The notes beneath the pieces were generated by a model, which did no database searches, had not been told where the DNA came from, and saw nothing but the letters and a program-made list of their open reading frames with translations. A program made the translations under genes and the position numbers. 64,000 nt of DNA from an uncultured Verrucomicrobiota bacterium (GTDB lineage Bacteria > Verrucomicrobiota > Verrucomicrobiia > Opitutales > Opitutaceae). Below, piece after piece: positions 7,348-64,000 of this stretch (positions are counted from its first letter, which is position 1; each line of letters starts with the position of its first letter). The stretch lies in NCBI GenBank assembly GCA_913058185.1, contig CAJXQX010000008.1:8031-72030 (forward strand). The letters are read 5' to 3'.

Positions 7348-7468
7348 AAATTCAAGGCAAACCGAACTAGTATAGTCGCATTGATTTCATTAAACTGAAG
7401 AGGCCACTGCCCTATCCAGCCGCTGGACCGTCTTGCATTCTACCCTTGGTTGGACGTAACCACTTCAC

Positions 7469-7951
7469 ATGGACGTTGAAATCATTCAGGCCGACTACGC
7501 CGATCCGAAGCATCGCAAAGACATTCCACTGGTTCTAAGTGCGTATGCATCGGACCCCATGGGTGGCGGAGTTCCTTTGAGCGATTTCACGAAAACGAAC
7601 TTGGTGGATAAGCTGTCCGCACTTGGTCACGCGTTTACGATCTTAGCCTACGTCGATGGCGAACCCGCGGGCCTGGTGAATTGTTTGGAAGGTTTCTCCA
7701 GCTTTGCCTGCCATCCCCTCATCAACATCCATGACGTGGTGGTATTGGAGAACTTTCGGGGCCACGGATTGAGCCAAAGCATGTTGCAAAAGGTTGAGGC
7801 CATCGCCCAAGAACGGAGTTGCTGCAAAATCACGCTCGAGGTGCTCAGCAACAATACGATCGCCAAAAAAGCCTACGCCAAATTCGGATTCGCCGGCTAC
7901 GAGTTGGACCCCTCCGCCGGCCATGCCTTGTTCTGGGAAAAAGCCCTTTGA
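7469..7951 (+). CDS. GNAT family N-acetyltransferase
   Basis: 160 aa with the acetyl-CoA binding block VVVLENFRGHGLSQSML and the C-terminal AKKAYAKFGF motif. Confidence 0.85.
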   Translation: MDVEIIQADYADPKHRKDIPLVLSAYASDPMGGGVPLSDFTKTNLVDKLSALGHAFTILAYVDGEPAGLVNCLEGFSSFACHPLINIHDVVVLENFRGHGLSQSMLQKVEAIAQERSCCKITLEVLSNNTIAKKAYAKFGFAGYELDPSAGHALFWEKAL

Positions 7952-8092
7952 TCCTGCATCAAAGACACCTCAGCGTAACGAATTTATTCCACCGATTTTC
8001 AAGCAGAAGGTCGCAAAGAAAACAAAGGGCTAAGCACCGCTGATTTCACAGAAGGAAGCAGAGCGCACGGGGCCAACCTACCGATACTAAGT

Positions 8093-43732: not shown

Positions 43733-43734
43733 GA

Positions 43735-45111: not shown

Positions 45112-45283
45112 GAGGGTAATCTCGCCGAGCGGTGGCGGGGGCAGACAAAGGAGCCCAAGGGCCGACGGCAATCAACGAACAGACTGTTAAATCAGTTAAG
45201 CATCTCGAACTGAATTTACGGCGGCTCAACTGTTCAACCGGGTGGAGCGTTGCCTCACAGTTCAGAATTTGACTGCTTCAAAT

Positions 45284-49474: not shown

Positions 49475-49589
49475 CGCTCGAGGAGTCGGCCAACATAGCC
49501 CATTACCGAGAAAAAACTGCCCAGGATCGGCGGCCTCCGTTCTTGTGCTACGCCGGTGCTTCGCCGCATAACTGAGGTTGCGCCCACCC

Positions 49590-50603
49590 ATGTCTGATCC
49601 CGTCTCCGCCATTGCCGTCTCCAACCTGGTAAAAAACTACGCCGGGGTGACGGCTGTCAGTAACATCAGTTTTAACGTCGCCCAGGGTGAAATCCTCGGA
49701 TTTCTCGGCCCCAATGGCGCCGGAAAGTCCACCACCATGCGAATTCTCACGGGTTTTCTGCCGGCGACATCCGGGCAAGTCGAAATCTGTGGTCATTCCG
49801 TCGCGACCGAATCCGCCGCTGTGAAACGCCTCATCGGTTACATGCCGGAGAACAATCCCCTGCCCGAGGATATGCGGGTTTCGGAATACCTCTACTACCG
49901 CGGCCGCCTCAAGGAGATGACCCGCAAGCAGCTCGGCCCTCGGATCGATGAGTTGTTGGAGTTGTGCGACCTCAAACGCGTGCGTCACCGCATCATCGGC
50001 AAACTCTCCAAGGGATTCCGCCAACGGATCGGAATCGCCGAGGCTATCCTGGCCGAACCACCCGTGATCATCATGGACGAGCCCACCATCGGGCTCGATC
50101 CTCACCAAATTCTCATCGTCCGGGATCTTATCTCCCGTTTGCGCGGTCGTATGACTGTGATCATTTCCTCCCATATTCTGCCTGAGATCGAGATGACCTG
50201 CGACCGCGTGCTGATCATCAACCAAGGTCGGGTCGTCGCAGCGGGCGAACCAGCCGCCCTCAAACGCGAACTCCTAGGCCGCGCGCGCTACGAAGTGGAT
50301 ATCGTCGCCGAGAGTGCCGATGTCGCGGGCCTGATCGCCACGATCGACCCTTCGCTCGAGATCACCAGCGAAACGATGCCCGATGCGGAAGGGTTCCGCA
50401 CCATCGAGTTGAGCACCGATGAAGATTCGGATTTCAGCGAAACGCTTCTGCGTCACTTCGCCGCCGATGATCGGTGCCGCCTACGTGGTCTGAGTCGCGC
50501 CAGTCCTACCCTCGAAGACGTGTTCCTCGCCGCCACCAAGCGGAGCTGGGATGTCGTGGATCGAGCTGGCGCCAAATCTGAAATCGTAAATCCGAAATCG
50601 TAA
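49590..50603 (+). CDS. ABC transporter ATP-binding protein (ABC-2/GldA-like)
   Basis: Walker A GPNGAGKSTT, signature LSKGFRQR, Walker B VIIMDEP, and a C-terminal extension of about 100 aa. Confidence 0.9.
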   Translation: MSDPVSAIAVSNLVKNYAGVTAVSNISFNVAQGEILGFLGPNGAGKSTTMRILTGFLPATSGQVEICGHSVATESAAVKRLIGYMPENNPLPEDMRVSEYLYYRGRLKEMTRKQLGPRIDELLELCDLKRVRHRIIGKLSKGFRQRIGIAEAILAEPPVIIMDEPTIGLDPHQILIVRDLISRLRGRMTVIISSHILPEIEMTCDRVLIINQGRVVAAGEPAALKRELLGRARYEVDIVAESADVAGLIATIDPSLEITSETMPDAEGFRTIELSTDEDSDFSETLLRHFAADDRCRLRGLSRASPTLEDVFLAATKRSWDVVDRAGAKSEIVNPKS

Positions 50604-50609
50604 ATCCCG

Positions 50610-51371
50610 ATGCGCCATTTTCTGACCATTCTCGGCCACGAGGTCCGCATGTTGCTGGTGAGCCCCAGCACCTACATTGCAGCCGTAACGTTTCTCGCCT
50701 TCATGGGGTTTATCTTCGCGGGTATTTTGGCGGAATTTTCCTCCACGCCGCAGCAGAACTCACCCGCCGTGGCATTCTTCGAACTCTTTTGGGTGCCCGT
50801 CATCTTCATCGTGCCTCTTCTCACCATGAAAAGCATCTCCGAAGAGCGCCGGCTCGGCACCTTGGAGACCCTACTCACCACCCCCATTTCCACCGGCGAA
50901 GTGGTGCTGGGTAAATACGGCGCGGCTTACTTACTCTATCTGTCTTTGTGGGCGTCCACCGCCGGATTGTTCTACATCCTACATCGATTCACCCAGGACT
51001 CCTTCCTGCTCGATCTCGGGCCACTCATCGGCGGCTATCTGTTCATCGCTGTATCGGGCCTGCTATTTGTCGCGCTGGGGATCTTCGCGAGCTCACTTTC
51101 CCGCAACCAAGCCGTCGCAGGAATCTTCGGCGTCGTCATGCTTTTCGGCCTCATCATTGGCACCCAACTTCTGGCCGGACTGGCCACCCTCAACCTCGAG
51201 TCTTTCGCTACCCTTAAATCAAGTGTCGAATATGCCCAAGTATTTCAGCACCTCGATGATTTCAGTCGCGGAATCGTTGATACGCGACAACTGCTGTTCT
51301 ACGTGAGCGGAGCGAGCCTTACCCTAATTTTGAGCGTCCTCGGTTTAGAGGCCAAGTTGTTGCACAGCTGA
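50610..51371 (+). CDS. ABC-2 type permease (GldF-like)
   Basis: 253 aa, six hydrophobic helices, SEERRLGTLETLLTTP motif. Confidence 0.85.
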   Translation: MRHFLTILGHEVRMLLVSPSTYIAAVTFLAFMGFIFAGILAEFSSTPQQNSPAVAFFELFWVPVIFIVPLLTMKSISEERRLGTLETLLTTPISTGEVVLGKYGAAYLLYLSLWASTAGLFYILHRFTQDSFLLDLGPLIGGYLFIAVSGLLFVALGIFASSLSRNQAVAGIFGVVMLFGLIIGTQLLAGLATLNLESFATLKSSVEYAQVFQHLDDFSRGIVDTRQLLFYVSGASLTLILSVLGLEAKLLHS

Positions 51372-51373
51372 TC

Positions 51374-52867
51374 ATGGCTATTCGACATTCCTTCGCTTTC
51401 GCTCGCTGGACGAGGACCCTTAATCTGGTCCTGCAAGCCTTCCTTTTACTGACGTTCTTTGGTGGCCTCAATTATCTGGCGCTCAACTACGGCTGGCGCT
51501 GGGACCTCACGAACCACCGACGCCACACGCTTTCGGAAGAGACCCAGGCTTACCTCCGATCGCTGGAGCAACCGGTGAAGCTGATCATCACGACCAACCT
51601 CAATACGAGTGACCCTGATGCCAATCAGGCCTTTCGCGACATCCGTGGCCTGCTGGACGAATACGCCACCGCCACCAAGGGTAAAAAAACTGCCGGCAAA
51701 ATCCTCGTCGAAAACCTCGACGTTTATCGCAACCAACTCCGAGCCGAGGCACTCGGGATCGACGACACCAATATCGTCGTAGCGATCTGTAACGACCGCA
51801 CCACGGTCATCCCATGGGCCGACTTCTATGAAACCCGTAAACGCGTAGCAGTCGCATTCAAGGGCGAACAGGTCGTCACCTCGGCCATTCTCAGTGTTTC
51901 AAACCCACAACGACCCAAGATCTATTTCCTCGCGGGTCACGGAGAAATGCGACCGACCGACGTCAATGCAGCTCGGGGACTTTCCGTGTTTGCCGACGAA
52001 TTGCGCCAACGAAACCTACAGGTCGAATCGATCGATCTTACGATGCAAAAGGAGGTCCCGCAAGATGCCGATCTCTTAGTTATAGCGGCCCCCCAAGGCC
52101 GCTTCGACCCCTTCGAAGTCGAGTTGCTTCGGCGCTACTTAAGCGAAAGCGCGGGACGCATCTTGGTTATGCTCCCACCCGCCATTAATCACGGGCTCGA
52201 CGATCTACTCTACGATTGGGGCCTCGTCGCCGATGATGTGGTGGTGCTCGAACCCGACCCAGCCCATGTCACCGAGGCCGCCGAGTTGCGCATCAGCGCC
52301 TTCGCCCCCCATCCTATCACGCAATCCCTCATCGATAACCAATTGGCCGGCTACCTTGGGCTCACCCGGGTGGTGCGTCCCGACCCGGGACGCCCCTTGG
52401 ATAATGCGCTACGCATCGATGTGCTCGCCGCGACCTCGGAAACCGCTTGGGGCGAACGCGACTACCGTGCCACCAGCGCGAGCTATAACCCCGGGATCGA
52501 CTTGCAAGGGCTCGCCGGTTTCGAACCGCTCGGTCGCCTGGGTGTCGCAGTCGCCTCAGAACGGGTTACGCCACCGAAGGATCTTCCTTTCAGCGTGCGC
52601 GGTGGCCGCATCGTCTTATTCGGCAATGCTGATTTCGCCGCCAACGCTCGTATCGTCGCTCCCGGCAACCTCACCCTCGCACTCAACGCCATCGAGTGGT
52701 GCGTCGATCGCGATGTGCAGATCAACACCGTACCTCGTCCTATCGAGCGCTACCAAATCAACCTGAGCAAAGCTGACCTCGCAAAGTTACGCATTAGCCT
52801 GCTCGTCATCCTTCCGGGACTCGCTGCTTTGTTTGGCACCGTCGTTTATTGGACCCGACGCTCCTAG
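51374..52867 (+). CDS. GldG-like ABC transporter auxiliary protein
   Basis: N- and C-terminal TM helices. The WDLTNHRRHTLSEETQAYLRSL opening is typical of the ABC_transp_aux family. Confidence 0.8.
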   Translation: MAIRHSFAFARWTRTLNLVLQAFLLLTFFGGLNYLALNYGWRWDLTNHRRHTLSEETQAYLRSLEQPVKLIITTNLNTSDPDANQAFRDIRGLLDEYATATKGKKTAGKILVENLDVYRNQLRAEALGIDDTNIVVAICNDRTTVIPWADFYETRKRVAVAFKGEQVVTSAILSVSNPQRPKIYFLAGHGEMRPTDVNAARGLSVFADELRQRNLQVESIDLTMQKEVPQDADLLVIAAPQGRFDPFEVELLRRYLSESAGRILVMLPPAINHGLDDLLYDWGLVADDVVVLEPDPAHVTEAAELRISAFAPHPITQSLIDNQLAGYLGLTRVVRPDPGRPLDNALRIDVLAATSETAWGERDYRATSASYNPGIDLQGLAGFEPLGRLGVAVASERVTPPKDLPFSVRGGRIVLFGNADFAANARIVAPGNLTLALNAIEWCVDRDVQINTVPRPIERYQINLSKADLAKLRISLLVILPGLAALFGTVVYWTRRS

Positions 52868-52895
52868 TCCCACCGCCGCACCAAACCCTTCCGTC

Positions 52896-54902
52896 ATGCG
52901 CACTAAGATTACGCTCTTCCTCCTGCTCCTCAACGTCGTGCTGTTCTTCTTCATCTTTGGCGTGGAGAGAAAGTGGCGGACCGAAATACTCATTGATGAA
53001 GCCAAGTCCCGAGTCCTCGGACCTGAGGCGGCCAATATTCAGACCTTAAAGATTTCCGGCGACAGTCTTGCCGAGTCGGTCCAATTGGAGCGGAACGGTG
53101 ACAGTTGGCGCATCACTTCCCCCTACGAATGGCCCGCTAATCCCCACGCCGTAAGCCGCATTGTCAACGAGCTGCAATTCCTCGAGCACTACACCAGTTT
53201 CGCGGTGGATAATCTCAGTGCCACCGACCTCTCACTCGTCGACTACGGTTTGGATAACCCCAAGCTGACCGTGAGTTTCCGCTCCGGTAGCGGCGAAAAC
53301 GCCATCGAAACTTCTCTGGCGATCGGCGATACCACCAAGATCGGTCAACGGCTTTACGTGCTTTCCCCCGATAGCACCCGCGTGCACGTCGTGCCAGACA
53401 CCCTCGCCAACAGTCTTTCCCTCGACCTCGAACAACTTCGCACCAACGCCTGCTTCACCATCCCCGTTTTCGAAGTCCGTTCTTTGAATCTCCAAAATGA
53501 CGGTCCGGCCAACGTGCGGGTGCGCTTGCGTCGCCAAAACAACCAATGGCAATTCGAGTCCCCCGTCGTCACTCGCGCTTCCAAGAGCCGCACCGAATCC
53601 ACTCTCAGTGACATCGCCACCCTCCGAACATCAGACTTTCTCGGAGCCCCCTCGGAACAACCCGACCTCCTCACCACCTCGGGAACCAACACGCCCAGTC
53701 TGCGCATCACCCTCGAAGGTAACAATCGGCGCGAGTCCCTCTTACTCGGTAATGAAATCGATCCGCCGACCGCGATCAACCCCGACGACCCAAACTCCGA
53801 GCCTGTCGATCGGAAGTTTTATGCCCAAATGGAGGGCCGCGACGCCATCTTCACCGTCGTATTGCCTCAACGGCTTGCCACCAATCTGCGTAGCGCGCAA
53901 AGCGAGCTTCGCGAAAAAACCATTCTGGATCTCGAGGATCGCCGGATCGATGCAATCACCTTGGCCGACGATCTTGGCCAAGAGATAACGATCCAAAAAC
54001 TGGATACCAACGACAGCAAAGCCACCGGCGTGATCAGTTCGTGGCAGGTCGTCGCCCGGGGGGCCGACGGGACTCTCCGGACAGATCCCGCCGATGCCGA
54101 CGTGGTGGAACAAGAATTACTACGCACCCTTCGATTGCTGCGGTCCGAATCATTTGAACGAGATGTGCCGACCGATGCGGAGTTGGAGGACTGGGGCTTG
54201 AAGCGTCCCCGTCGCACCATCACCCTTTCTTTCCAGCCCGCCTTGGGCTCCACCACCGCCCCCGACCGCATCACCCTGCTCATCGGCACGGATCAAACTG
54301 GCGACGATGCCTACGCCAAAACAGGCCTCGAAACGTTCGTTTACGGCATCGACGAGGTGTTCTTGCGCAACACGCCACTCGACCCTCTGCACTACCGAGA
54401 ACGCTTAGTGAGAGAACTTCCGGCCGGCGCTCGGATCACGGGCATCGAATTGCAAGATCTCAGCGCCAATGCGACTGACTTCGCCCACCAGCTGGTCGAA
54501 GAAGAAACGTGGGAGAGCGTAATCGCCACGCATCCCCCGGCTCAACAAGCGTCGCTTACCGCGCTGCTCGCCTCCCTCCGCACCCTACAATCTCAACGGA
54601 TCGTGGCCGACGAATTCCGCGATACCGTGCGGGTCAACGGTCAGACATTGCCTTGGCGCTATCGGATGAACTTGAACCTCTCCCTCAGTGGTGACGGTGG
54701 CGAACAGGAGGAAGTGTTTACTCTATTCCTCGCCGACCGAGACGGCGGCGATCGTCAACTGGTGGGAGCGCCTGGTCTGAGTCTCATTTTCGAAGCGAAT
54801 CACGAATTGATCGATGCGGTTTGGAACCTGACTTATGGGAATCGGGACCCCGGATCCATCGAACTGACAACGCCGCCTGATTTGCCCGAGACCGACGCTT
54901 GA
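52896..54902 (+). CDS. DUF4340-like membrane-anchored protein
   Basis: ATG at 52896, an N-terminal TM helix, and repeated beta-rich modules. It occupies the conserved position after a GldG-like gene. Confidence 0.65.
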   Translation: MRTKITLFLLLLNVVLFFFIFGVERKWRTEILIDEAKSRVLGPEAANIQTLKISGDSLAESVQLERNGDSWRITSPYEWPANPHAVSRIVNELQFLEHYTSFAVDNLSATDLSLVDYGLDNPKLTVSFRSGSGENAIETSLAIGDTTKIGQRLYVLSPDSTRVHVVPDTLANSLSLDLEQLRTNACFTIPVFEVRSLNLQNDGPANVRVRLRRQNNQWQFESPVVTRASKSRTESTLSDIATLRTSDFLGAPSEQPDLLTTSGTNTPSLRITLEGNNRRESLLLGNEIDPPTAINPDDPNSEPVDRKFYAQMEGRDAIFTVVLPQRLATNLRSAQSELREKTILDLEDRRIDAITLADDLGQEITIQKLDTNDSKATGVISSWQVVARGADGTLRTDPADADVVEQELLRTLRLLRSESFERDVPTDAELEDWGLKRPRRTITLSFQPALGSTTAPDRITLLIGTDQTGDDAYAKTGLETFVYGIDEVFLRNTPLDPLHYRERLVRELPAGARITGIELQDLSANATDFAHQLVEEETWESVIATHPPAQQASLTALLASLRTLQSQRIVADEFRDTVRVNGQTLPWRYRMNLNLSLSGDGGEQEEVFTLFLADRDGGDRQLVGAPGLSLIFEANHELIDAVWNLTYGNRDPGSIELTTPPDLPETDA

Positions 54903-54949
54903 ATTCTCCACCTTAACCTTCCGCCTTCCCGACCCGAACTCTACCGATC

Positions 54950-57811
54950 ATGCCTGTTCCCCGCTGGTTGAACGCCTGTTGGCAAAGCACCCACTTTTTT
55001 GGGCGTTGTATGTTCGGGCTCATCCGGTGGATTTCGTGGATCTTGTTAGTCGTGCTCGCTGGACTTCAGGTTTTCATCCTCACCAAACATGAATTGGATG
55101 TTCCGCAATTCGTGCTGCGAGAAATCGAGAGTCGCTTGGGCCAGGCCGGCCTCCATGCCAAGTTCGGTCAATTCACATTTGATCCCACGGGGTGTCTACT
55201 CGTGCGCGACCTGCAGGTGAGCCTGCTCTCTTCAGATACGACCGTCTTACGCGCAAAGTCGATCGCCATGCAGGTCAATCCAGTCGCATTGTGGTTTCGC
55301 GAAATCGATCCTAGCGAAATTCGGATTTCGGGGGTCGACCTCCTCATCCCCGCGGCAATCTCACCCACTGGTCAGGCCGAGCCTATGGTAGCTGGTATCG
55401 ATGCCCGTATTCGCCAAGGGGACTCCCCCCGCCTATTGCGGCTCGAAAATCTAACCGCCCAGGTGGGACCTGTCGCAGTGAGCGCATTCGGAGACTGCCT
55501 GCTTCCTGCCCGATCATCTGGACCTGCCGCCCCTTTTGACCAGTTTCTCGAGTCCTTCTCGAAAAACTATCTCAAGAAATGCCGCCTCATCAGCGAAACT
55601 CTCGCCAAATTACCCCAGATGGCGGGGGCCAAGTTAGAGTTGAGCCTGACTCCGCATCCCCGTTTTGGAGTCGCTACCGCGGTGCGAGCCAGCGTTGAGA
55701 CATTGGAGCTTCAAATCACCACCGATCCAAAATCCCGTCTTCGGGTGCAGGACGCGATCGCCTTTGCCGACCTCTTTCCGGGCGGAGGAAATCGCATCGA
55801 ACAGCTGTCACTGGAGGCTCGCGTGATCGATTGGCCCTCGCACGTGAGTGCGGGAAATTTGCAGGCAAATCTCACCGCCGCGTTTGAGCCCGAATCCCTC
55901 AACTTCAGCCCCCAAGACCTGACGTTAATCGCCGATCACATCATCGTGGCCGGGGTGAAAGTAGAGGGAGTCTCAGTCCAATCCACTCTCGCCGGAATTC
56001 CCGTGATTCAATCAACCGGCGTGGCTCAAATCGGCGGAGGCGTCTGGAGTTTCGCGACAGACTTAGATCTAACCGTCGGTGCGGGCCGCGTGTCACTCGA
56101 GGGAGAAGTCGGCGCCGGAACCCTCGATATCTTGGCCGACAAAATTGGATTCGATGTGCCATCGATCTTAAGTTGGCCCGAAAGGCCCTTCCTCCAAACT
56201 GAACTCATGCTCGGTCCCGGCGGGCGTCCGCTATCGGCCGAAGCGGACTTCTCAACCGGTCCGGTTACCGCCCGGTGGGTGCCGCTGGACGCGACAGCGG
56301 CTCACGTAACTTGGCAAAACGATCATCTTCGCGCCGATCAAATTCTGCTTCGACGCGGGGAAAGCGCGGCCTTTGGTAGTTATTATATGAATACGGATGA
56401 TCTTGATTTCCGTTTTCTCCTCAACGGCCAGCTTTTGCCCAACGACATCAGCGGTTGGTTTCGGGACTGGTGGCCGAAGCTATTTGCGATGTTCGAATTC
56501 CCCAGCGCACCACCTCGCGCCAACGTGGAAGTAAGTGGGCGATGGAAAAAGCCGCTCGATACGGTCATTTTCATTTCTGCTGATGCCGACGATGCGGTGG
56601 TGAAAGACATCGCGATGCAGCGGATGCGCACCCGGCTATTCGTGCGACCGGGTTGGGTTGACGTGCTAAACTTTATCTCGGAACGCGAACCCGGCACCGT
56701 GCAGGGAAGCTTCGCTCGCCAATGGCGCCTGCCTGACAGCCGACGCTGGACGCGGTTGGAAATTCACGCCGCTGGTAGCAGTGATCTCTCCCCGGTGCCA
56801 AAACTCTTGAGCCGCAACGGAGCTGCCATCATCGAACCGTTCGATTTCACCAATCCAATAGAGATGCGGCTGGACGGTGAAATCACGCGCAGCGACTGGG
56901 ATCAACCGGCGCAAGAAGACTTTGTATTGATCGGCAAATCAGAAGGCAATTGGCGGTTTAAAAAAATTCCGCTAGAAGACGTCGAATTCCAAGTAACTCG
57001 CCGCAACGAAAAGATTGAGGTCAATGACTTCACCACGGGGTTTGCCGGGGGTAAACTACAGGGGAAAGTTGAGCTTACGGGCGCAACCGGCGAAACCAAG
57101 CACCTCGCGTTTGATGTCAATCTGGAGGACGCATCGCTCGGTCACACGATACAAGACGTAGCCCAGTGGACGGCATCACGTCGGGGGGAAACCGCGGCAG
57201 ATTCCACGAAATTCGAAACTCAATTGGCCGCAGGGAAACTCGCCATGGCTCTTTCTGCTGAAGGTCCCGCCGATGATCCATTTGCTCTTATCGGCGCCGG
57301 GAGTGCAGCGGTCACGCACCCTTATCTGGCCAACGTTAATCTACTCGGCGTGCTCTCGGGTCTGTTAGAACGAACGGTTTTAAATTTCTCTACCCTCCAG
57401 CTCAGCCACGCAAACGCGGACTTCACGCTGAATGGTCCCGAGGTCACTTTCCCCGATATAAAGATCTCGGGAGAACGGGGCGCACTCGACGCTAACGGGA
57501 TTTATTCTCTCGATACTAAGGCTCTTAATTTTAATGCCCGGGTGCGTCCATTTGATGGTGGCGAGGGACTGCTCGATGCGGTATTTACCCCATTTTCATC
57601 CGCATTGGGGGTTAAATTAGGCGGAGTTCTGAGCAAACCCAATTGGACCTTCGTCTATGGACCGACCAATATACTGCGAAATCTTACTGGAGAAAATAAT
57701 CGCCCTAAACCCTCTCCTTCGACGCCAGAATCACCTTCTTCAAACGGCCAACCGTCCGCCCCAATTCTCGAGCCGAATCCAGAGGTGTTGGTTCCCGAAG
57801 GTCAAAATTGA
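54950..57811 (+). CDS. Large membrane-anchored protein, AsmA/TamB-like (tentative)
   Basis: N-terminal TM helix. The C-terminal segment GERGALDANGIYSLDTKALNFNARV...GVKLGGVLSKPNWTF resembles the AsmA_2 end. Pro/Ser-rich tail. Confidence 0.5.
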   Translation: MPVPRWLNACWQSTHFFGRCMFGLIRWISWILLVVLAGLQVFILTKHELDVPQFVLREIESRLGQAGLHAKFGQFTFDPTGCLLVRDLQVSLLSSDTTVLRAKSIAMQVNPVALWFREIDPSEIRISGVDLLIPAAISPTGQAEPMVAGIDARIRQGDSPRLLRLENLTAQVGPVAVSAFGDCLLPARSSGPAAPFDQFLESFSKNYLKKCRLISETLAKLPQMAGAKLELSLTPHPRFGVATAVRASVETLELQITTDPKSRLRVQDAIAFADLFPGGGNRIEQLSLEARVIDWPSHVSAGNLQANLTAAFEPESLNFSPQDLTLIADHIIVAGVKVEGVSVQSTLAGIPVIQSTGVAQIGGGVWSFATDLDLTVGAGRVSLEGEVGAGTLDILADKIGFDVPSILSWPERPFLQTELMLGPGGRPLSAEADFSTGPVTARWVPLDATAAHVTWQNDHLRADQILLRRGESAAFGSYYMNTDDLDFRFLLNGQLLPNDISGWFRDWWPKLFAMFEFPSAPPRANVEVSGRWKKPLDTVIFISADADDAVVKDIAMQRMRTRLFVRPGWVDVLNFISEREPGTVQGSFARQWRLPDSRRWTRLEIHAAGSSDLSPVPKLLSRNGAAIIEPFDFTNPIEMRLDGEITRSDWDQPAQEDFVLIGKSEGNWRFKKIPLEDVEFQVTRRNEKIEVNDFTTGFAGGKLQGKVELTGATGETKHLAFDVNLEDASLGHTIQDVAQWTASRRGETAADSTKFETQLAAGKLAMALSAEGPADDPFALIGAGSAAVTHPYLANVNLLGVLSGLLERTVLNFSTLQLSHANADFTLNGPEVTFPDIKISGERGALDANGIYSLDTKALNFNARVRPFDGGEGLLDAVFTPFSSALGVKLGGVLSKPNWTFVYGPTNILRNLTGENNRPKPSPSTPESPSSNGQPSAPILEPNPEVLVPEGQN

Positions 57812-58079: not shown

Positions 58080-61007
58080 TTGATCGGAGTGGAGTTAGGG
58101 TTCCGGCGATTTGCGCTCTTGGCCATTTTCCCTACGGCAATCGGCGCGGTTACGTTGTTGCAGGATGCCACCGGCAGCGACTTCGGGCTCGACGAGCTGT
58201 TGTTCAATTACTTCCCGCTCACCGCTGGGGCGAACGACGGGCGCATGTCTCCCCCCGTTTCGGTAGCCCTCCTGCTCTCGAGTCTTCTCGTCATGAGTTT
58301 GGCGAGACCTCGAGTCGGCAAACGGCAAACGCTCGTTTTGGCACTCGTTGCCTCGATCGTCCTCTCGATGGGTGCGGCCAATTTGCTGGGCTACACGCTC
58401 GATCTGACTCTAGCCTACCGTTGGGGCTATTTGCACGATACTTCACCGCTCGCCGCCATCGCGGTCGCCTTGATGGGCATTGCTTTGCTCGCGCAACCTT
58501 GGCGAGAACACAACCTCACCGGCGCGGGGGCACCGAGTTGGTTGCCTCTTCCAGTCGTGGTGGGTTCCGCGACCATGACCCTCATCCTTTACATGGGCCT
58601 GGGGGACCAAGAACTGGTCCGATTACGGGATGCCACCAATCGAAGTGCCGTGAGTCTAGCACGAGAAGTGGAAGATTTGATGACGGCTCAGACCAACCAA
58701 TTTGGCTATTTCGCGCGGGAATGGTCCCATGAAGAAAAGACGGCCGTGCTCAGAGGAATCGAAGCGGAATCATTCTTGCGCACCAATGGTGGAGGTCGAG
58801 CCGGCCAATCGCTCTCCCTGGTTTCTCTGCTGCCCGAGCTAAAAACCCGGGAAGTCTACCCGGCCGCAGGCAACGAACACCTCGCGAGCTTCGAACACAG
58901 CTCCAACCCCACCCGCGTCGCCGCCGTGCACCGCTCCCTTTCCACCTCTAGCGCTCCCGTCATTACGGGCACCCTCGATTTGGAACTCTATGGGCCCGGC
59001 TACGCGATCTACGTGCCGATGAAGCGCGACAATCAACTTTGGGGCTTTCTCGTCGCTTCCCGGACCGACAATTTGGTGATGATCTCCACCCCTGATGGCA
59101 AAGTTGACTGGGTGAATGAGAGTTTCACACGCGTGATGGAATTCGATCTGGACGAAATCTACGGCAAGACACCCGACACATTCCTCCTCGGCCCGGAATC
59201 GCGTAAACGTGATGTCGTTCGCATCAAAGCGGCTATGGCTCGAGGCCAAGGTGTGACTTCAGACATCGTCAATTACTCCAAATCTGGCCGGAAGTATCAC
59301 CTGCATTTGGAGATTCAACCGATCTACGGCGAGAACGGCGAAATCGAAACTTATATTGCGATCTTGGCCGACATCACGACCCGTGTCGCCACCGAGCACG
59401 CCCTACGTCTGGCCAAGACCGAGGCCGACCATGCCTCTCGCTCGAAGTCCGAGTTCCTGGCTTCCATGTCGCACGAAATCCGCACCCCGATGAACGGCGT
59501 GATTGGCATGACCAGCCTGTTGATGGATACCGCGCTGGATCCGAAACAACGGGATTTCGTCAATACCATCCGCACGTCGGGCGAAGCGCTGCTCACCATC
59601 ATCAACGATATTCTCGATTTTTCGAAGATCGAATCGGGCAAGATGCACCTAGAGCAACTTCCGTTCGATTTGCCCAACTGTGTCGAAGAAGCCTTGGAAC
59701 TATTCTCGATGCAGGCTTCGACCAAGAACCTCGATTTGGCCTACCTCATCGCGGAAGACGTTCCTCCGTGGATCATCGGCGATGTAACGCGCCTCCGTCA
59801 GATTCTCGTGAACTTGGTCAACAACGCCATCAAGTTCACCCTCAGGGGCAGCATCACCATCACCGTTCGCAAGAAACAACGTCCGCACTCGGGTAAAACC
59901 GACGAAAGTTACCAACTCGAGTTTACCATCGCCGATTCTGGCATCGGTATTCCGAAAGATCGCATCTCGCGACTCTTCAAAGCCTTTAGTCAGGTCGACT
60001 CCTCAACCACGCGTAAATACAGCGGAACTGGACTGGGACTCGCGATCTGTCATCGCCTCACCGAAATCATGGGAGGATCGATTCATGCCGAAAGCATGGA
60101 AGGCGAAGGCACTCAGTTCATCTTCGATATTTCGACATCTGCGGCCCACGCACTCAACGCGGACCCTGCTCCTTCATTGCCCAAAATGATCGCCGAGGCC
60201 CCTGTGCTGGTGGTCGAAGACAACGCGATTGGTCGTCAACACCTGCAAGAGTTCTTCCAAAATTGGCGAACCAAAGCGAACACTGCGAGCAGGGTAAACG
60301 AAACCGCTCAACTGCTGCAATCGGGCCGCGTGCATGGATTGGTCCTACTCGATCAAGAGGTGATCAGCCAACCCGGTGGCGAAGAACTCCTCAAAGTAGT
60401 CGAAGAGAAGAAAATTCCGACCCTCGTTCTACTTTCACCCGGCCCTGAAGGGGCTCATATCAGGCTGAACCCGCCGAAGATTATTTCGATCAATAAACCA
60501 GTGAGAACCAACACTCTCATTCGACGGGTGCAGTCCCTCCTCGATGCCACCCCGGTGAATGTCGCGGTGAAACCGGTAGCTACGGCAAAATTAGCCGAAG
60601 AGTTCCCTCTCACCGTGCTCCTCGTAAAGGACAATCTGGTAAACCAAAAGGTGGCCGCCCGATTCCTTGATCGACTGGGTTACGAATCCGATATCGCCAA
60701 CAACGGCCTCGAAGGATTCAACGCGGTTCAAAATAAAAAATACGATCTGGTTCTGATGGACTTACAGATGCCCGAAATGGACGGTTTCACCTCTTCACGG
60801 GAAATTCGCCAAAAAATCCCCGCCGAAGAACAGCCCAAAATCATCGCTCTCACCGCCAACGCCCTGCAAGGCGACCGTGAGCTTTGCCTCGAGGCAGGGA
60901 TGGACGATTACATCACCAAACCCGTGAAAATCCACGAGCTCCGGGAAGTGATCCGCCGTCAATTTGCGGCAGTTCCCGGCAGAGAAGTCCCCACGGCTGA
61001 AGCTTAA
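58080..61007 (+). CDS. Hybrid sensor histidine kinase / response regulator (N-terminus interrupted, see findings)
   Basis: Membrane sensor repeats, then a PAS-like region. H-box SHEIRTPMNG, G2 box GTGLGLAICH. A degenerate receiver is followed by the canonical receiver DLVLMDLQMPEMDG. Confidence 0.85.
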   Translation: MIGVELGFRRFALLAIFPTAIGAVTLLQDATGSDFGLDELLFNYFPLTAGANDGRMSPPVSVALLLSSLLVMSLARPRVGKRQTLVLALVASIVLSMGAANLLGYTLDLTLAYRWGYLHDTSPLAAIAVALMGIALLAQPWREHNLTGAGAPSWLPLPVVVGSATMTLILYMGLGDQELVRLRDATNRSAVSLAREVEDLMTAQTNQFGYFAREWSHEEKTAVLRGIEAESFLRTNGGGRAGQSLSLVSLLPELKTREVYPAAGNEHLASFEHSSNPTRVAAVHRSLSTSSAPVITGTLDLELYGPGYAIYVPMKRDNQLWGFLVASRTDNLVMISTPDGKVDWVNESFTRVMEFDLDEIYGKTPDTFLLGPESRKRDVVRIKAAMARGQGVTSDIVNYSKSGRKYHLHLEIQPIYGENGEIETYIAILADITTRVATEHALRLAKTEADHASRSKSEFLASMSHEIRTPMNGVIGMTSLLMDTALDPKQRDFVNTIRTSGEALLTIINDILDFSKIESGKMHLEQLPFDLPNCVEEALELFSMQASTKNLDLAYLIAEDVPPWIIGDVTRLRQILVNLVNNAIKFTLRGSITITVRKKQRPHSGKTDESYQLEFTIADSGIGIPKDRISRLFKAFSQVDSSTTRKYSGTGLGLAICHRLTEIMGGSIHAESMEGEGTQFIFDISTSAAHALNADPAPSLPKMIAEAPVLVVEDNAIGRQHLQEFFQNWRTKANTASRVNETAQLLQSGRVHGLVLLDQEVISQPGGEELLKVVEEKKIPTLVLLSPGPEGAHIRLNPPKIISINKPVRTNTLIRRVQSLLDATPVNVAVKPVATAKLAEEFPLTVLLVKDNLVNQKVAARFLDRLGYESDIANNGLEGFNAVQNKKYDLVLMDLQMPEMDGFTSSREIRQKIPAEEQPKIIALTANALQGDRELCLEAGMDDYITKPVKIHELREVIRRQFAAVPGREVPTAEA

Positions 61008-61136
61008 GTGACCGCGCTCCGGCGCCTCAGCACAAGTTCCAGTCTACAGTTCGACTGTTTAACGTACAGTAGAGCTCGCTTTCTATTAATTCTGAAACCT
61101 GGTTTCCCTGTGACCTTTTAACCCCTCTATATCACC

Positions 61137-62255
61137 ATGCGTCGCAATTCGAACACCCCGTCCCTCGGCCGCATCGCAGAACAAGCTGGCGTATCACGTG
61201 CCGCTGTCTCAATGTCGCTGCGTAACCACCCCAGAATACCCAGCTCCACTCGCGAACGTATTCAGAAAATCGCCAAAGAGTTGGGTTGGAAGCCCAACCC
61301 ACTTCTAGCGGAGGCCATGAGCGCCATTCGCGCGGGCCAGCCTCCCGTTGATCGTGTAACGCTCGCTTGGATAACCACCGGCCCTCGCCGGGATGATTGG
61401 CAGTCCAGCAATTTCGATGTGCGTTGTCACGCGGGTGCAGTAGAACGGGCGGAAAACGCGGGTTACCGGCTCGAGACATTTTGGATGGGCGATGCCAACA
61501 ACAACCCCGATCGCCTGGGTGACATTCTCTACAACCGGGGCATCGTCGGTGTCCTAGTCGCCCCCTTGCGCGAACCTGACAACCTTCCGATGCAGTGGGA
61601 ACGCTTCGCGGCAGCTACGGTTGCGCACACGTTGATTTCGCCGCGACTACACTCCGCCAACGACAACCACGCGGCTGGCATGCGGGTCTGTGTCGCTCGA
61701 CTACACGCCTGTAATCGTCGACGCGTCGGCTTGGCTCTCTCGGCGAAACTTGATCACCGGGTAGCTGATCTTTGGTCCGCCGGGTATCTGCTTGAGACCT
61801 TCGAAGAAGGCCTGGCTGATCCCAAATTACTCCATCGCCCCGAGGAAGAAGTAGATGAGGCAAACTTCATCCGCTGGGTCAAAAAAGCCAAACCCGATGC
61901 CATCATCGGCACCAAGTGCCAAATTCCTGAGTGGTTGGAACAGGCCGGCTACAATGTGCCCAAAGACATCGCCTACGCCGGCCTCGATCTGAACTCCTCC
62001 AATGGCGAAACCGCCGGCATTTTCCAAGATGCTCGAGCCATTGGGGCAAGCGCGATCGATATGATTGCCGGTCAGCTACTCCGCCACGAACGCGGTATTC
62101 CAGAAAAACCCAAGACCAGCATCATCGACGGCCATTGGATCCAAGGCGCCACCATGCCCAAGAAAGTCCATAACCAAGACCTCATCGATCGAGCCGAACG
62201 CCTTCTTTATAATTCAGGCGACCCCGAATCCACCCGCCCCGTCGTCTACGATTGA
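61137..62255 (+). CDS. LacI family transcriptional regulator
   Basis: N-terminal HTH LGRIAEQAGVSRAAVSMSLRNHP plus a periplasmic-binding-protein-like effector domain. Confidence 0.9.
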   Translation: MRRNSNTPSLGRIAEQAGVSRAAVSMSLRNHPRIPSSTRERIQKIAKELGWKPNPLLAEAMSAIRAGQPPVDRVTLAWITTGPRRDDWQSSNFDVRCHAGAVERAENAGYRLETFWMGDANNNPDRLGDILYNRGIVGVLVAPLREPDNLPMQWERFAAATVAHTLISPRLHSANDNHAAGMRVCVARLHACNRRRVGLALSAKLDHRVADLWSAGYLLETFEEGLADPKLLHRPEEEVDEANFIRWVKKAKPDAIIGTKCQIPEWLEQAGYNVPKDIAYAGLDLNSSNGETAGIFQDARAIGASAIDMIAGQLLRHERGIPEKPKTSIIDGHWIQGATMPKKVHNQDLIDRAERLLYNSGDPESTRPVVYD

Positions 62256-63412
62256 GCCGAAGAATCCGCGAGATTTTCCCGCTCCGTCGGATCTTTCTCT
62301 AGGTCAAATTCCAACCACGGGGAATCATCTGCCAAATGGATGACTTTACGATCCGCCGAGCGCCAGCCCGACCAAATTCGATCTGCTTGATCCGGTAGTT
62401 TCACCACCGAAGGCATGGAAATCGGCGCTTGTTCTCGGTTACAAACCCACGCGCGACCCGCGCTCCAGTTGCGAGTCATTGCAGGTAGATCAAGCAAGGA
62501 AACGGACGCCGGGTTAATCGATCCTGTTTCTGCGCCTGGCGCTCCAGCTACGATAAATGGCACCCGAACACTTTCTTCGTAAGGCCACCCTTTGCGGAAC
62601 CGACCGTGCGAACCATGCATGTCTCCATGCACCGAGGTTACGATTACCACGACATCTTCCGGTAGCTCGGACACGAGTCGCGCGATAGCACGATCCGTCG
62701 CGGCGATATGTCGATAGTAACCGACAAGATCCTGCCGGGCGCGGACCGTCGCCGAGTCAGGCACATTCTCCCGGAGTAGAATAGAGGACATTTCCAATTC
62801 TTCGATACCTACGGGTGTTGCTGCGTTATAAGGAGGATGCGGGGCCTCAAGATCTATTACCGCAAACCACGATTGATCCTGCTCGTGAATCCACGCCGCG
62901 GTTCGATCCACCAACACATCACTTTGATATCCGGTAATCTGCACGGGCTCGGCCAGCCGCGTGCCATGCAACCACGGATCATTGAGTAGAAAGCCGCTCT
63001 CAAACCCCTCCCAAAACTCGAATCCCCCTCGATCAGCCTCGGGCACAATCTGCCGCGCATGAACTTCTCCAACCAACGGGGCTTTCGGGTCACGACGACT
63101 CAAATGCCACTTCCCAAAATGCGCGGTCCGGTGACCAGCCTCTTTCATCTCGTGCGCAATCGTGCGTGCGGAACGGGGTAGTGGATCGAAGTAATCACGC
63201 ACACCGTTCTCGGGTGACGGCACACCCGTAAGCATGGCAGCCCGGGCAAATGGACCGAAGGGATGCGGAGTGGTGGCTTGACTATAACTCACCCCGCGAG
63301 CCGCCAATTCCACCAGACCAGGCGTGTGAACATTCGGATCATCACCGCCACTCCAAGCCTGTCCCCGCCACTGGGTGGCTACTACCCATAGAACCGATCG
63401 ACGAGGTTTCAT
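62246..63412 (-). CDS. Sulfatase-fold protein lacking catalytic residues (pseudo-sulfatase), leaderless
   Basis: Clear S1 scaffold (HFGKWHL, PYEESVRVPFIV, DLEKDPTE). However, DD is replaced by VVATQW, the C-x-P-x-R motif reads FGPFAR-AAMLTG, and SDHG reads SVHG. Confidence 0.8.
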   Translation of the reverse strand: MKPRRSVLWVVATQWRGQAWSGGDDPNVHTPGLVELAARGVSYSQATTPHPFGPFARAAMLTGVPSPENGVRDYFDPLPRSARTIAHEMKEAGHRTAHFGKWHLSRRDPKAPLVGEVHARQIVPEADRGGFEFWEGFESGFLLNDPWLHGTRLAEPVQITGYQSDVLVDRTAAWIHEQDQSWFAVIDLEAPHPPYNAATPVGIEELEMSSILLRENVPDSATVRARQDLVGYYRHIAATDRAIARLVSELPEDVVVIVTSVHGDMHGSHGRFRKGWPYEESVRVPFIVAGAPGAETGSINPASVSLLDLPAMTRNWSAGRAWVCNREQAPISMPSVVKLPDQADRIWSGWRSADRKVIHLADDSPWLEFDLEKDPTERENLADSSAQS

Positions 63413-63540
63413 ATCGGTCCACGTTGTCCCGCCATCGTAAGCGCAGGCCAGACATTCAATTTGGGCGAAATTCCACTACTCATAGAGAAGTAGACTATCG
63501 GGTTGCGGACTGCCCGACGCAAACTCACCTTTCCCGACTC

Positions 63541-64000
63541 ATGGTTCTGCCCATAGTTCAATTTAACGATCCCGTATTGCGCCAAAAGGGAGCCCCAGTC
63601 ACTGACTTCGACTCCGATCTCGCCCAGCTCGCCGACAACATGGTCGATACCATGCACGAGGCGCTGGGTATCGGTCTGGCTGCCCAGCAAGTTGGTCGCG
63701 CCATAAAATTTTGCGTGATCGACCTCTCGCAAGCTCCCCGTGAGTTCGATTGGCAACTCGACGGCATGTCCACCCCACTCGATCTCATCATGCCGATGGC
63801 TATGGCTAACCCGACGGTTGAGTTCCCGGCTGGCGAAGACACCGTTTACGAAGAAGGATGCCTGTCATTTCCTGGCATCAACGGTGATGTCGTCCGCCCC
63901 GACCAGATTCGGGTCAGTTTTCAGGATGTGAGCGGCACGGCCCACACCATGACGTGCAACGGTCTCTTGGGACGTTGTATCCAACATGAAGTCGATCACC
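63541..64000 (+). CDS. def: Peptide deformylase, 3' end cut by window edge
   Basis: Not in the ORF track because there is no stop in the window. My translation from ATG 63541 is MVLPIVQFNDPVLRQKG...GIGLAAQQVG...EEGCLSFPG...IQHEVDH, which carries all three deformylase motifs. Confidence 0.9.
   Translation, partial: MVLPIVQFNDPVLRQKGAPVTDFDSDLAQLADNMVDTMHEALGIGLAAQQVGRAIKFCVIDLSQAPREFDWQLDGMSTPLDLIMPMAMANPTVEFPAGEDTVYEEGCLSFPGINGDVVRPDQIRVSFQDVSGTAHTMTCNGLLGRCIQHEVDH

What the first reader, a model, noticed from the sequence alone, without database searches (positions are those of the whole stretch)
62246..63412. Sulfatase homolog stripped of nucleophile and metal ligands, converging on a LacI regulator
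The other eight sulfatase genes in the window keep the canonical residues, apart from the Arg-to-Leu change in 1481-2908. This 388-aa paralog keeps the fold-defining blocks (HFGKWHL, EESVRVPFIV, C-terminal DLEKDPTE) but has lost the catalytic set. The N-terminal metal-binding DD is VVATQW. The C/S-x-P-x-R formylglycine motif is FGPFAR (no Cys or Ser) while the downstream AAMLTG is retained. The SDHG metal block is SVHG. It also has no signal peptide. The reading frame is intact over its full length, which argues for a retained non-catalytic role such as a ligand-binding or sensor pseudoenzyme, rather than simple decay. Its 3' end overlaps the 3' end of the LacI-family regulator gene by 10 nt (62246-62255), so the two may be functionally linked.
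Basis: partly seen in the sequence, partly recalled or inferred. Interest (0 to 1): 0.7.

Follow-up and report, generated by a model that had tools for sequence, protein, structure and literature searches.

The report
Conserved catalytically dead sulfatase-fold protein
This gene encodes a cytoplasmic protein with a sulfatase fold that has lost its reactive residue and three of its four metal-holding residues, yet has been kept under strong selection across a whole order of bacteria (Opitutales), so it has a non-sulfatase job that is still unknown and that does not depend on the neighbouring LacI regulator.

Summary
ORF 62246-63412(-) is an intact 388-aa S1-sulfatase-fold protein (Pfam PF00884 E 5e-27; AlphaFold pTM 0.87; Foldseek TM 0.77-0.80 to solved sulfatases) with no room for a signal peptide.

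Catalytic positions:
- **Lost:** the first metal Asp is Thr13, the formylglycine Cys/Ser is Gly53, the signature Pro is Phe55, and the second metal Asp is Val261.
- **Kept:** the cationic sulfate-pocket residues Arg57, Lys101, His192, Lys274, plus His262.

This is not decay.
- At least 460 stretches in the species-representative genome collection encode a relative. The 80 best are all Opitutaceae/Opitutales/Verrucomicrobia records.
- The frame is intact in 86 of 86 loci.
- dN/dS is 0.07-0.23 for close pairs.
- The substitutions are fixed (Thr13 85/85, Gly53 84/85).
- All nucleophile-less sequences form one clade (99/100 bootstraps), sister to catalytic cytoplasmic sulfatases.

The LacI link is weak. 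A convergent LacI gene is adjacent in only 9 of 80 loci, and no LacI-operator-like site lies upstream of the gene.

My inference is that the protein binds a sulfated or other anionic metabolite without hydrolysing it. Its function is untested.

I rate it a new non-catalytic variant of a known fold, of moderate interest.

The parts
62246..63412 (-). 388-aa cytoplasmic S1-sulfatase-fold protein without nucleophile or metal carboxylates (pseudo-sulfatase)
   Evidence: ORF; PF00884 E 4.9e-27; AlphaFold pLDDT 80, pTM 0.87; Foldseek matches to PDB sulfatases 6s21, 6j66 and 2qzu with TMq 0.77-0.80
63374..63376 (-). Thr13 codon, at the position of the first metal-ligand Asp (EfAS D20, PAS D13)
   Evidence: Alignments; Thr in 85/85 orthologs; Asp in 114/114 catalytic relatives; D20N abolishes EfAS activity (PMC12421950)
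63242..63256 (-). G53-P-F-A-R57, the degenerate C/S-x-P-x-R signature: the nucleophile is Gly, the Pro is Phe, the Arg is kept
   Evidence: Gly 84/85, Phe 82/85, Arg 85/85; C61A abolishes EfAS activity
63101..63121 (-). HFGKWHL block with Lys101 (PAS K113, sulfate binding; invariant) and His103 (PAS H115, acts on the formylglycine hydrate; relaxed to Gly or Gln in some members)
   Evidence: Lys 85/85, His 79/85 with 6 Gly; Gln or Gly in P0122, P0123, P0125, P0127, P0128. PAS residue roles are from established knowledge and the SulfAtlas paper figure legend
62837..62839 (-). His192 (PAS H211, sulfate/leaving-group contact), invariant
62627..62632 (-). Val261-His262, replacing the D-H metal-ligand pair (EfAS D311-H312)
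   Evidence: alignment (TSVHG against ISDHG/TSDHG); Val 80/85, Ala 4, Met 1; His 85/85; D311N abolishes EfAS activity
62591..62593 (-). Lys274 (PAS K375 / EfAS K324, partner of Gln14), invariant. It lies in a model segment with pLDDT below 50.
61137..62255 (+). Convergent LacI-family regulator gene. Its last 10 nt (62246-62255) overlap the 3' end of the sulfatase-like gene. It is a lineage-specific neighbour.
   Evidence: PF00356 + PF13377; adjacent in 9/80 loci
61054..61070 (+). ACTGTTTAACGTACAGT inverted repeat upstream of LacI, a probable autoregulatory operator. It is not found near the sulfatase-like gene.
   Evidence: Unique in the window; core TTAAC[GA]T recurs upstream of LacI orthologs
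63541..64000 (+). Divergent peptide deformylase gene (cut by the window end). This is a conserved core-genome neighbour. The two membrane-protein genes X and Y that separate def from the sulfatase-like gene in most relatives are missing here.
   Evidence: PF01327 E 7e-42; synteny table
58080..61007 (+). Hybrid histidine kinase (CHASE/PAS/HisKA/HATPase/2xREC), the more widely conserved convergent neighbour
   Evidence: Pfam; within 2.5 kb downstream in 37/69 loci

Best explanation
The gene encodes a cytoplasmic protein with the full S1 (formylglycine-dependent) sulfatase fold that can no longer perform sulfatase chemistry. It has no Cys/Ser to be converted to formylglycine, and the FGE/anSME recognition Pro is gone. 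Three of the four metal ligands of its ancestral D-Q...C...D-H type site are replaced by Thr, Gly and Val. The loss happened once, in an ancestor within Opitutales, and the product has since been kept as a single conserved gene under strong purifying selection. Those steps are shown. The next steps are inferred. Every cationic residue that contacts the sulfate group in active sulfatases (Arg57, Lys101, His192, Lys274, plus His262 and the Gln14-Lys274 pair) stayed invariant. The one residue whose only known role is to act on the formylglycine hydrate (His103) has been allowed to drift. I therefore think the old active site now works as a metal-free, strongly positive anion pocket. It would bind a sulfated or similarly anionic small metabolite without hydrolysing it, most plausibly a sulfated sugar of the kind its catalytic cytoplasmic sisters desulfate. 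What the bound state is used for (sensing, sequestration or delivery to a partner) is unknown. The function does not depend on the LacI neighbour. The confidence given (0.5) is for the whole statement including the inferred binding role; the shown part (conserved, selected, unable to do formylglycine chemistry) I hold at about 0.95.
For: Fold: PF00884 E 4.9e-27; model pTM 0.87; Foldseek E 1e-22 and TMq 0.77-0.80 to sulfatases. Loss of catalytic residues: alignments, and the contrast with 114 catalytic relatives. In the related enzyme EfAS, D20N, C61A and D311N each abolish activity (PMC12421950), and by the alignment these are T13, G53 and V261 here. Selection: the frame is intact in 86/86 loci. 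dN/dS is 0.07-0.23 in close pairs, with a median of 0.22 over 1971 pairs. Orthologs are 55-71% identical, similar to the deformylase neighbour. Fixation: T13 85/85, G53 84/85, R57/K101/H192/H262/K274 85/85, H103 79/85. The same holds in 120 database homologs. Seven of the 10 canonical active-site positions are invariant against 68 of 378 others, Fisher p = 6e-4. A derived subclade swaps R57 to K and K101 to R, conserving charge. Single origin: all degenerate sequences are monophyletic in 99/100 NJ bootstraps, sister to catalytic P0129. Ancestral substrate type: the catalytic relative P0139 lacks a signal peptide and sits beside a sugar ABC importer, a ROK protein and a sugar-isomerase-like gene. 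Breadth: 460 stretches in the species-representative genomes; the best 80 are all Opitutaceae/Opitutales/Verrucomicrobia records, and one member comes from a Puniceicoccaceae MAG.
Against: No ligand has been identified and no binding was tested. The conserved cationic residues could instead be kept for fold stability, or for a new catalytic chemistry. The model is of low confidence (pLDDT below 50) in three highly conserved loops (114-118, 138-146, 264-277), one of which carries Lys274, so the pocket geometry rests on sequence alignment and not on coordinates. The gene sits in a core-genome region next to def, two unknown membrane proteins, a histidine kinase and a Gld-like ABC cluster, not in a sugar-utilisation locus. 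That position does not point to sugar metabolism. The family is present in freshwater, soil, insect-gut and marine members alike, so a niche-specific sulfated glycan is unlikely to be the ligand.
Confidence: 0.5

Rival explanations
1. Neofunctionalised enzyme. The pocket has been rebuilt for a metal-independent reaction on an anionic substrate. One possibility is that the invariant Thr13 hydroxyl (Ser in the derived subclade), or a His, acts as nucleophile, with Lys/Arg/His stabilising the transition state.
For: The former active-site blocks are the most conserved parts of the protein. Position 13 is restricted to the hydroxyl residues Thr or Ser across both degenerate subclades. The alkaline-phosphatase superfamily is known for catalytic promiscuity (PMC12421950, abstract seen).
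Against: Thr13 is not at the superfamily's nucleophile position, which is Gly53 here. All known superfamily enzymes need metal ions, and three of four ligands are gone. The general base Asp (V261) is missing, and position 261 tolerates V/A/M/T/N. His103 drifts to Gly or Gln.
Confidence: 0.22
2. Structural or protein-interaction role. The protein is the soluble partner of the conserved membrane pair X (polytopic) and Y (TM + coiled coil), or of another protein, and the old pocket residues are kept only as a buried charge network.
For: X and Y lie upstream on the same strand in 31/58 loci, and Y is directly adjacent in 12/77. In the 45%-identical member L088 the three genes are packed with gaps of 53 and 2 nt. 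Family-specific loops (WEGFESGFLLNDPWLHG, SMPSVV..LP.Q.DR.W.GWRS) are highly conserved.
Against: X and Y are absent from this window and from L006 and L007. In many genomes 1-4 kb of unrelated genes separate Y from the gene. The synteny may be no more than conserved core-genome order. X and Y match no known family.
Confidence: 0.2
3. One reading: the pseudoenzyme works together with, or is regulated by, the convergent LacI-family repressor.
For: The 10-nt 3' overlap in the window. Tight 3' packing is also seen in L001 (10 nt by the called genes), L006 and L041. Adjacency is kept in nine loci of one subclade.
Against: LacI is absent next to the gene in 71 of 80 loci, so the protein functions without it. 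There is no operator-like copy upstream of the gene. Convergent orientation gives no co-transcription. LacI proteins sense effectors directly.
Confidence: 0.05
4. Plain pseudogenisation of a sulfatase gene, or alternatively a still-active formylglycine sulfatase that has been misaligned.
For: None beyond the missing catalytic residues. A Pfam score of 95 bits is lower than the 138-220 bits of the window's other sulfatases.
Against: Intact frame in 86/86 loci, dN/dS about 0.1-0.2, and substitutions fixed for the whole clade. Three independent alignments agree, and there is no Cys or Ser anywhere in residues 45-60.
Confidence: 0.02

Closest known systems
S1 formylglycine-dependent sulfatases of the D-Q / D-H-ligand type: cytoplasmic arylsulfatase-like enzymes such as Enterococcus faecium EfAS (PDB 9koq), Bacteroides fragilis YidJ (2qzu), and the related phosphonate monoester hydrolases
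   Same: Same two-subdomain alpha/beta fold. Same Gln after the first ligand, paired with the pocket Lys. Same His as fourth ligand. Same G-K-W-H, P-H and R-K-G-x-P-x-E-S blocks. No signal peptide.
   Different: No Cys/Ser nucleophile (Gly53). No signature Pro (Phe55). Both metal Asp residues are replaced (Thr13, Val261). It is about 70-80 residues shorter, with trimmed loops and no C-terminal helix. The canonical mechanism is therefore impossible.
Putatively inactive S1 sequences noted in the SulfAtlas paper (Arg55 to Ile/Leu in Lentisphaerae and Planctomycetes; PMC5066984)
   Same: Sulfatase-fold proteins from the Planctomycetes-Verrucomicrobia-Lentisphaerae group with a broken catalytic signature. 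The window itself carries one such gene, at 1481-2908.
   Different: Those sequences keep the Cys nucleophile and metal ligands and lose only the Arg. This family keeps the Arg and loses the nucleophile and the metal site. All 4058 sequences used to define S1 have Cys or Ser, so this family falls outside that definition.
Pseudoenzymes in general (for example chitinase-like lectins and pseudokinases). This comparison is from my own knowledge, not tested here.
   Same: A homolog of an enzyme family that has lost key catalytic residues but keeps its substrate-binding residues and is maintained by purifying selection.
   Different: No binding partner or ligand is known here. I found no paper describing a bacterial pseudo-sulfatase.

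Membership tests
S1 formylglycine-dependent sulfatase (SulfAtlas S1 / Pfam PF00884) | Alkaline-phosphatase-like alpha/beta fold with a C-terminal subdomain | tested here: met
   PF00884 95.5 bits against a cutoff of 25; Foldseek TMq 0.77-0.80, E 1e-22
S1 formylglycine-dependent sulfatase (SulfAtlas S1 / Pfam PF00884) | C/S-x-P/A-x-R signature with a Cys or Ser that is converted to formylglycine | tested here: not met
   The sequence is G53-P-F-A-R57. Gly is present in 84/85 orthologs. All 4058 S1 reference sequences have Cys or Ser (PMC5066984).
S1 formylglycine-dependent sulfatase (SulfAtlas S1 / Pfam PF00884) | Divalent-metal site: two Asp plus Asn/His plus formylglycine | tested here: not met
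   Thr13 and Val261 replace the two Asp residues; only His262 remains.
S1 formylglycine-dependent sulfatase (SulfAtlas S1 / Pfam PF00884) | Sulfate-binding Lys / His / Lys and second signature G-Y-x-[TSCV]-x3-G-K-..-W-H | tested here: met
   K101, H192 and K274 are invariant. The family consensus G-Y-x-T-A-F-F-G-K-W-H-L fits. The window protein has His94 in place of the Tyr.
S1 formylglycine-dependent sulfatase (SulfAtlas S1 / Pfam PF00884) | Sulfate-ester hydrolase activity | not testable with these tools
   This needs an enzyme assay. Single substitutions at the equivalent positions abolish activity in EfAS.
Pseudoenzyme (conserved non-catalytic homolog of an enzyme) | Key catalytic residues missing in a whole clade, not in a single sequence | tested here: met
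   85 orthologs and 120 database homologs; monophyletic in 99/100 bootstraps
Pseudoenzyme (conserved non-catalytic homolog of an enzyme) | Maintained by purifying selection | tested here: met
   dN/dS 0.07-0.23; 86/86 intact frames
Pseudoenzyme (conserved non-catalytic homolog of an enzyme) | Demonstrated lack of any catalytic activity | not testable with these tools
   Requires biochemistry. A new chemistry is not excluded.
Alkaline-phosphatase-superfamily enzymes with a Ser/Thr nucleophile (NPP, LtaS, EptA type) | Ser/Thr at the structural nucleophile position plus a metal site | tested here: not met
   The nucleophile position is Gly53 and the metal carboxylates are absent. There is only a weak sub-threshold PF01663 hit.
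   Adjacent in 9/80 loci. The LacI-upstream palindrome has no second copy in the window.

The most novel reading that the evidence does not exclude
This would be the first bacterial 'pseudo-sulfatase' family. It is an order-wide, single-origin, metal-free sulfatase fold that has turned its active site into a receptor for a sulfated or other anionic cytoplasmic metabolite. It may act as the soluble sensing subunit of a conserved, uncharacterised Opitutales membrane module: the polytopic protein X plus the coiled-coil protein Y, found next to a hybrid histidine kinase and a Gld-like ABC system.
Probability: 0.3. Interest if true: 0.7.

Novelty: new variant of a known kind. Interest (0 to 1): 0.5.

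Why it matters
Sulfatase counts are widely used to judge how well Verrucomicrobiota and Planctomycetota can degrade sulfated glycans. This family is annotated 'sulfatase' or 'arylsulfatase A-like enzyme' in public records, yet it cannot be a formylglycine sulfatase, so it inflates those counts. It also gives a clean natural experiment. One ancient loss of nucleophile and metal was followed by long-term retention of the sulfate-contacting residues. This could show how a hydrolase pocket is re-used as a binding site, and it might yield a natural, non-hydrolysing binder for a sulfated metabolite. Cultured hosts exist for genetics: Synoicihabitans lomoniglobus, Actomonas aquatica and Rariglobus hedericola.

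Tried and rejected
1. **LacI operator shared with the sulfatase-like gene.** The 61054-61070 palindrome and its 13-nt core were searched in the window with 2-3 mismatches. Only the site upstream of LacI was found.
2. **Promoter/terminator scan of 60900-63700.** Nothing above shuffled expectation.
3. **Identity of upstream genes X and Y.** Pfam, NCBIfam, PADLOC and PDB sequence searches gave only coiled-coil noise.
4. **Defence-system membership of the gene.** No PADLOC hit.
5. **Literature on pseudo-sulfatases, or on Opitutaceae sulfatases lacking CxPxR.** Nothing relevant.
6. **Recent paralogy with the window's eight sulfatases.** Rejected; identity is 26% at most.
7. **Alternative register putting a Cys/Ser at the nucleophile.** Rejected; residues 45-60 contain no Cys or Ser in the window protein. 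A few orthologs have Ser only at signature position 4.
8. **Inspecting pocket geometry in the AlphaFold model.** Coordinates are not exposed to the scripting tool, so residue roles rest on alignments.
9. **First NJ bootstrap script.** It timed out and was rerun with numpy distances.
Full report
**What is in the sequence.**
- ORF 62246..63412 on the minus strand is an intact ATG-to-TAG frame of 388 codons, and no longer in-frame start exists.
- It matches Pfam Sulfatase PF00884 over nearly the whole profile (positions 3-292 of 301, E 4.9e-27, 95.5 bits).
- NCBIfam gives only far-sub-threshold hits to arylsulfatase and choline-sulfatase models.
- An AlphaFold2 model built on 20 homologs has mean pLDDT 80 and pTM 0.87.
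- Foldseek against the PDB returns only S1 sulfatases and phosphonate monoester hydrolases: 6s21, 6j66 and 2qzu at TMq 0.77-0.80, E about 1e-22.
- The first beta-strand starts at residue 7, so there is no signal peptide and the protein should be cytoplasmic.
- The 10-nt overlap with the convergent LacI-family ORF 61137..62255 (PF00356 + PF13377) is real.
- The window carries eight other PF00884 genes with canonical C-x-P-x-R signatures. The exception is 1481-2908, which reads C-R-P-S-L.

**Catalytic columns.** Three independent alignments agree:
- phmmer against B. fragilis YidJ (2qzu);
- phmmer against Enterococcus faecium arylsulfatase EfAS (9koq);
- hmmalign of 150 cluster representatives to the family profile.

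| Query residue | Aligns with | In 114 catalytic-type relatives |
|---|---|---|
| Thr13 | first metal-ligand Asp | D (114/114) |
| Gly53 | Cys/Ser nucleophile | C or S (114/114) |
| Phe55 | signature Pro | P or A (114/114) |
| Val261 | second metal-ligand Asp | D (111/114; 3 gaps) |
| Gln14, Arg57, Lys101, His103, His192, His262, Lys274 | same residue retained | same residue |

In EfAS the metal is held by exactly D20, C61/formylglycine, D311 and H312. Q21 pairs with K324. The mutants D20N, C61A and D311N each lose all activity (PMC12421950). Counting along the alignment, with a chain offset of 4, these positions are T13, G53, V261, H262, Q14 and K274 here.

The protein therefore carries three substitutions, each at a position where a single mutation abolishes EfAS activity, and it has lost three of its four metal ligands.

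**Not decay: a conserved family.**
- A protein search found more than 120 homologs of 370-410 aa at 59-71% identity. All named ones are Opitutaceae: Synoicihabitans, Rariglobus, Actomonas, Opitutus.
- A scan of species-representative genomes found 460 encoding stretches. The best 80 are all Opitutaceae/Opitutales/Verrucomicrobia records from freshwater, groundwater, soil, insect-gut and marine sources.
- An identical protein occurs in marine (Tara) assemblies of an Opitutaceae MAG, and one divergent member comes from a Puniceicoccaceae MAG.
- The reading frame is intact through to a stop codon in all 86 loci.
- Nei-Gojobori dN/dS is 0.07-0.23 for the closest pairs. Examples are dS 0.125 with omega 0.14, and dS 0.21 with omega 0.08. 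The median is 0.22 over 1971 pairs with dS below 1.5.
- Across 85 orthologs: Thr13 85/85, Gln14 85/85, Gly53 84/85, Phe55 82/85, Arg57/Lys101/His192/His262/Lys274 85/85, Val261 80/85 (otherwise Ala or Met), His103 79/85 (otherwise Gly).
- Seven of the ten canonical active-site positions are invariant against 68 of the other 378 (Fisher p = 6e-4).
- In the library of 50%-identity representatives the family collapses to a handful of clusters (P0121-P0126).
- A derived variant (P0127, P0128) reads S-Q-W-R / H-P-[FW]-P-T-Q-S-K / N-H-G-D.
- Canonical enzymes begin at P0129, which reads T-D-Q-W-R / H-P-L-C-V-P-F-R / S-D-H-G-D.
- In a neighbour-joining tree all nucleophile-less sequences form one clade in 99 of 100 bootstraps, sister to P0129. 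Catalysis was therefore lost once and long ago.

**Surroundings and the LacI question.** Oriented with the gene on the plus strand, the common layout in Opitutaceae runs in this order:
- def(-);
- X(+), about 560 aa, a polytopic membrane protein;
- Y(+), about 470 aa, with an N-terminal TM segment and a coiled coil;
- the sulfatase-like gene(+);
- LacI(-), in some loci only;
- a hybrid histidine kinase(-);
- a 950-aa protein of unknown function(-);
- DUF4340, a GldG-like protein, an ABC-2 permease and an ABC ATPase.

Neighbour counts:

| Neighbour | Loci |
|---|---|
| Convergent LacI adjacent | 9 of 80 (one subclade that includes the window) |
| Histidine kinase within 2.5 kb | 37 of 69 |
| X/Y in the upstream flank | 31 of 58 |
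| Y directly adjacent | 12 of 77 |

- Rariglobus hedericola has a nuo operon downstream, and an Opitutus MAG has a Ser/Thr kinase.
- In the window, X and Y are missing and def abuts the gene.
- An inverted repeat, ACTGTTTAACGTACAGT (61054-61070), lies upstream of LacI. Its core recurs upstream of LacI orthologs. It has no second copy in the window, including the 63413-63540 promoter region of the sulfatase-like gene.
- The 3' overlap is therefore tight packing in one lineage and not evidence of a functional pair.
- X and Y match nothing in Pfam, NCBIfam, PADLOC or the PDB beyond coiled-coil noise.
- The 45%-identical member P0121 keeps X-Y-gene packed with gaps of 53 and 2 nt. This is the best, though still weak, hint of a functional partner.

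**How it most likely works.** Shown:
- the canonical mechanism is impossible, because there is no nucleophile, no FGE/anSME recognition motif, no metal carboxylates and no Asp base;
- the protein is cytoplasmic;
- the gene is under strong purifying selection, and the former active-site blocks are its most conserved parts.

Inferred:
- The retained residues are exactly those that contact the sulfate in active enzymes. In P. aeruginosa AtsA (PAS) numbering these are K113, H211, K375 and R55. The roles come from established knowledge and the SulfAtlas paper.
- The derived subclade conserves their charge (R57 to K, K101 to R).
- His103 (PAS H115) is the one position allowed to drift to Gly or Gln. 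Its only known role is to deprotonate the formylglycine hydrate.
- Removing two carboxylates and the cation leaves a strongly positive pocket lined by Trp15, Phe52 and Phe55.
- A catalytic relative, P0139, lacks a signal peptide and sits beside a sugar ABC importer, a ROK protein and a sugar-isomerase-like gene. The ancestral substrate was therefore probably a small imported sulfated sugar.
- I therefore favour a metal-free anion-binding protein that binds but does not hydrolyse a sulfated or similar metabolite (about 0.5).

Rivals are:
- a rebuilt enzyme with new chemistry (about 0.2);
- a structural or partner-binding role, possibly with X/Y (about 0.2);
- a LacI-linked role (about 0.05);
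- pseudogenisation or misalignment (about 0.02).

Caveats:
- The model has pLDDT below 50 in three very conserved loops, including the one that carries Lys274.
- I could not inspect coordinates.
- The core-genome context does not point to sugar metabolism.

**Comparison with what is known.** The protein has the fold and second signature of S1 sulfatases, but it fails two defining features that were tested here: the nucleophile and the metal site. All 4058 sequences used to define S1 carry Cys or Ser (PMC5066984), so this is a sulfatase-fold protein and not an S1 sulfatase. The only 'possibly inactive' S1 sequences noted in that paper lose Arg55 but keep the nucleophile. The window has one such gene at 1481-2908. 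Full-text searches found no paper describing a pseudo-sulfatase, or this Opitutales family. Public records name it 'sulfatase', 'sulfatase-like hydrolase/transferase' or 'arylsulfatase A-like enzyme'.

**Verdict.**
- This is a new non-catalytic variant of a well-known fold. It is widespread and ancient within one bacterial order, and its function is unknown.
- Interest is moderate (0.5). It is a clean and testable case of a pseudoenzyme in a family where none seems to have been described, and it corrects sulfatase counts in Verrucomicrobiota. No mechanism is established yet.

Noticed in passing
window 1481-2908 (+): Secreted PF00884 sulfatase whose signature is C-R-P-S-L (Arg to Leu). The SulfAtlas paper reported the same change for nine Lentisphaerae/Planctomycetes sequences and called them possibly inactive.
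   Followed up: partly
L001 4800-6530 (X) and 6544-7968 (Y); L088 143-3357; absent from the window: Two co-directional genes with no match in Pfam, NCBIfam, PADLOC or PDB: X is a polytopic membrane protein and Y has an N-terminal TM segment plus a long coiled coil. They sit between def and the sulfatase-like gene in about half of the Opitutaceae loci, and are tightly packed with it in a 45%-identical member.
   Followed up: partly
window 61054-61070: Inverted repeat ACTGTTTAACGTACAGT, 67 nt upstream of the LacI start codon. It is unique in the window. The core TTAAC[GA]T recurs upstream of LacI orthologs in L001, L004, L006, L015 and L031. It is probably an autoregulatory operator.
   Followed up: partly
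window 42113-45171 (-): A canonical sulfatase (43735-45171, CSPAR signature) with no obvious signal peptide lies directly upstream of a sodium:solute symporter gene (42113-43732). This suggests cytoplasmic desulfation of an imported sulfated sugar.
   Followed up: no
window 49578-57811 (+): ABC ATPase, ABC-2 permease, GldG-like ABC_transp_aux/DUF7088, DUF4340 and a 953-aa protein with no family match. The same five genes converge on the sulfatase-like gene in the distant locus L088, so the block is anciently syntenic.
   Followed up: partly
P0127, P0128 (L086 8001-9155): A derived subclade of the dead-sulfatase family with different replacements (Ser13, Pro53, Lys57, Asn261). In L086 it lies 7 nt downstream of an AP_endonuc_2 (sugar-isomerase-like) gene and upstream of pseudopilin-like genes.
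   Followed up: partly
L087 2160-4537: In a Puniceicoccaceae MAG the family member (P0125) overlaps the 3' end of a co-directional GFO/IDH/MocA oxidoreductase gene by 22 nt. This operon-like link is not seen in Opitutaceae.
   Followed up: no
L004, about 60-160 nt upstream of the LacI start (Actomonas aquatica): A run of imperfect 7-nt tandem repeats (ATCCCG[CGT]) fills the LacI upstream region.
   Followed up: no
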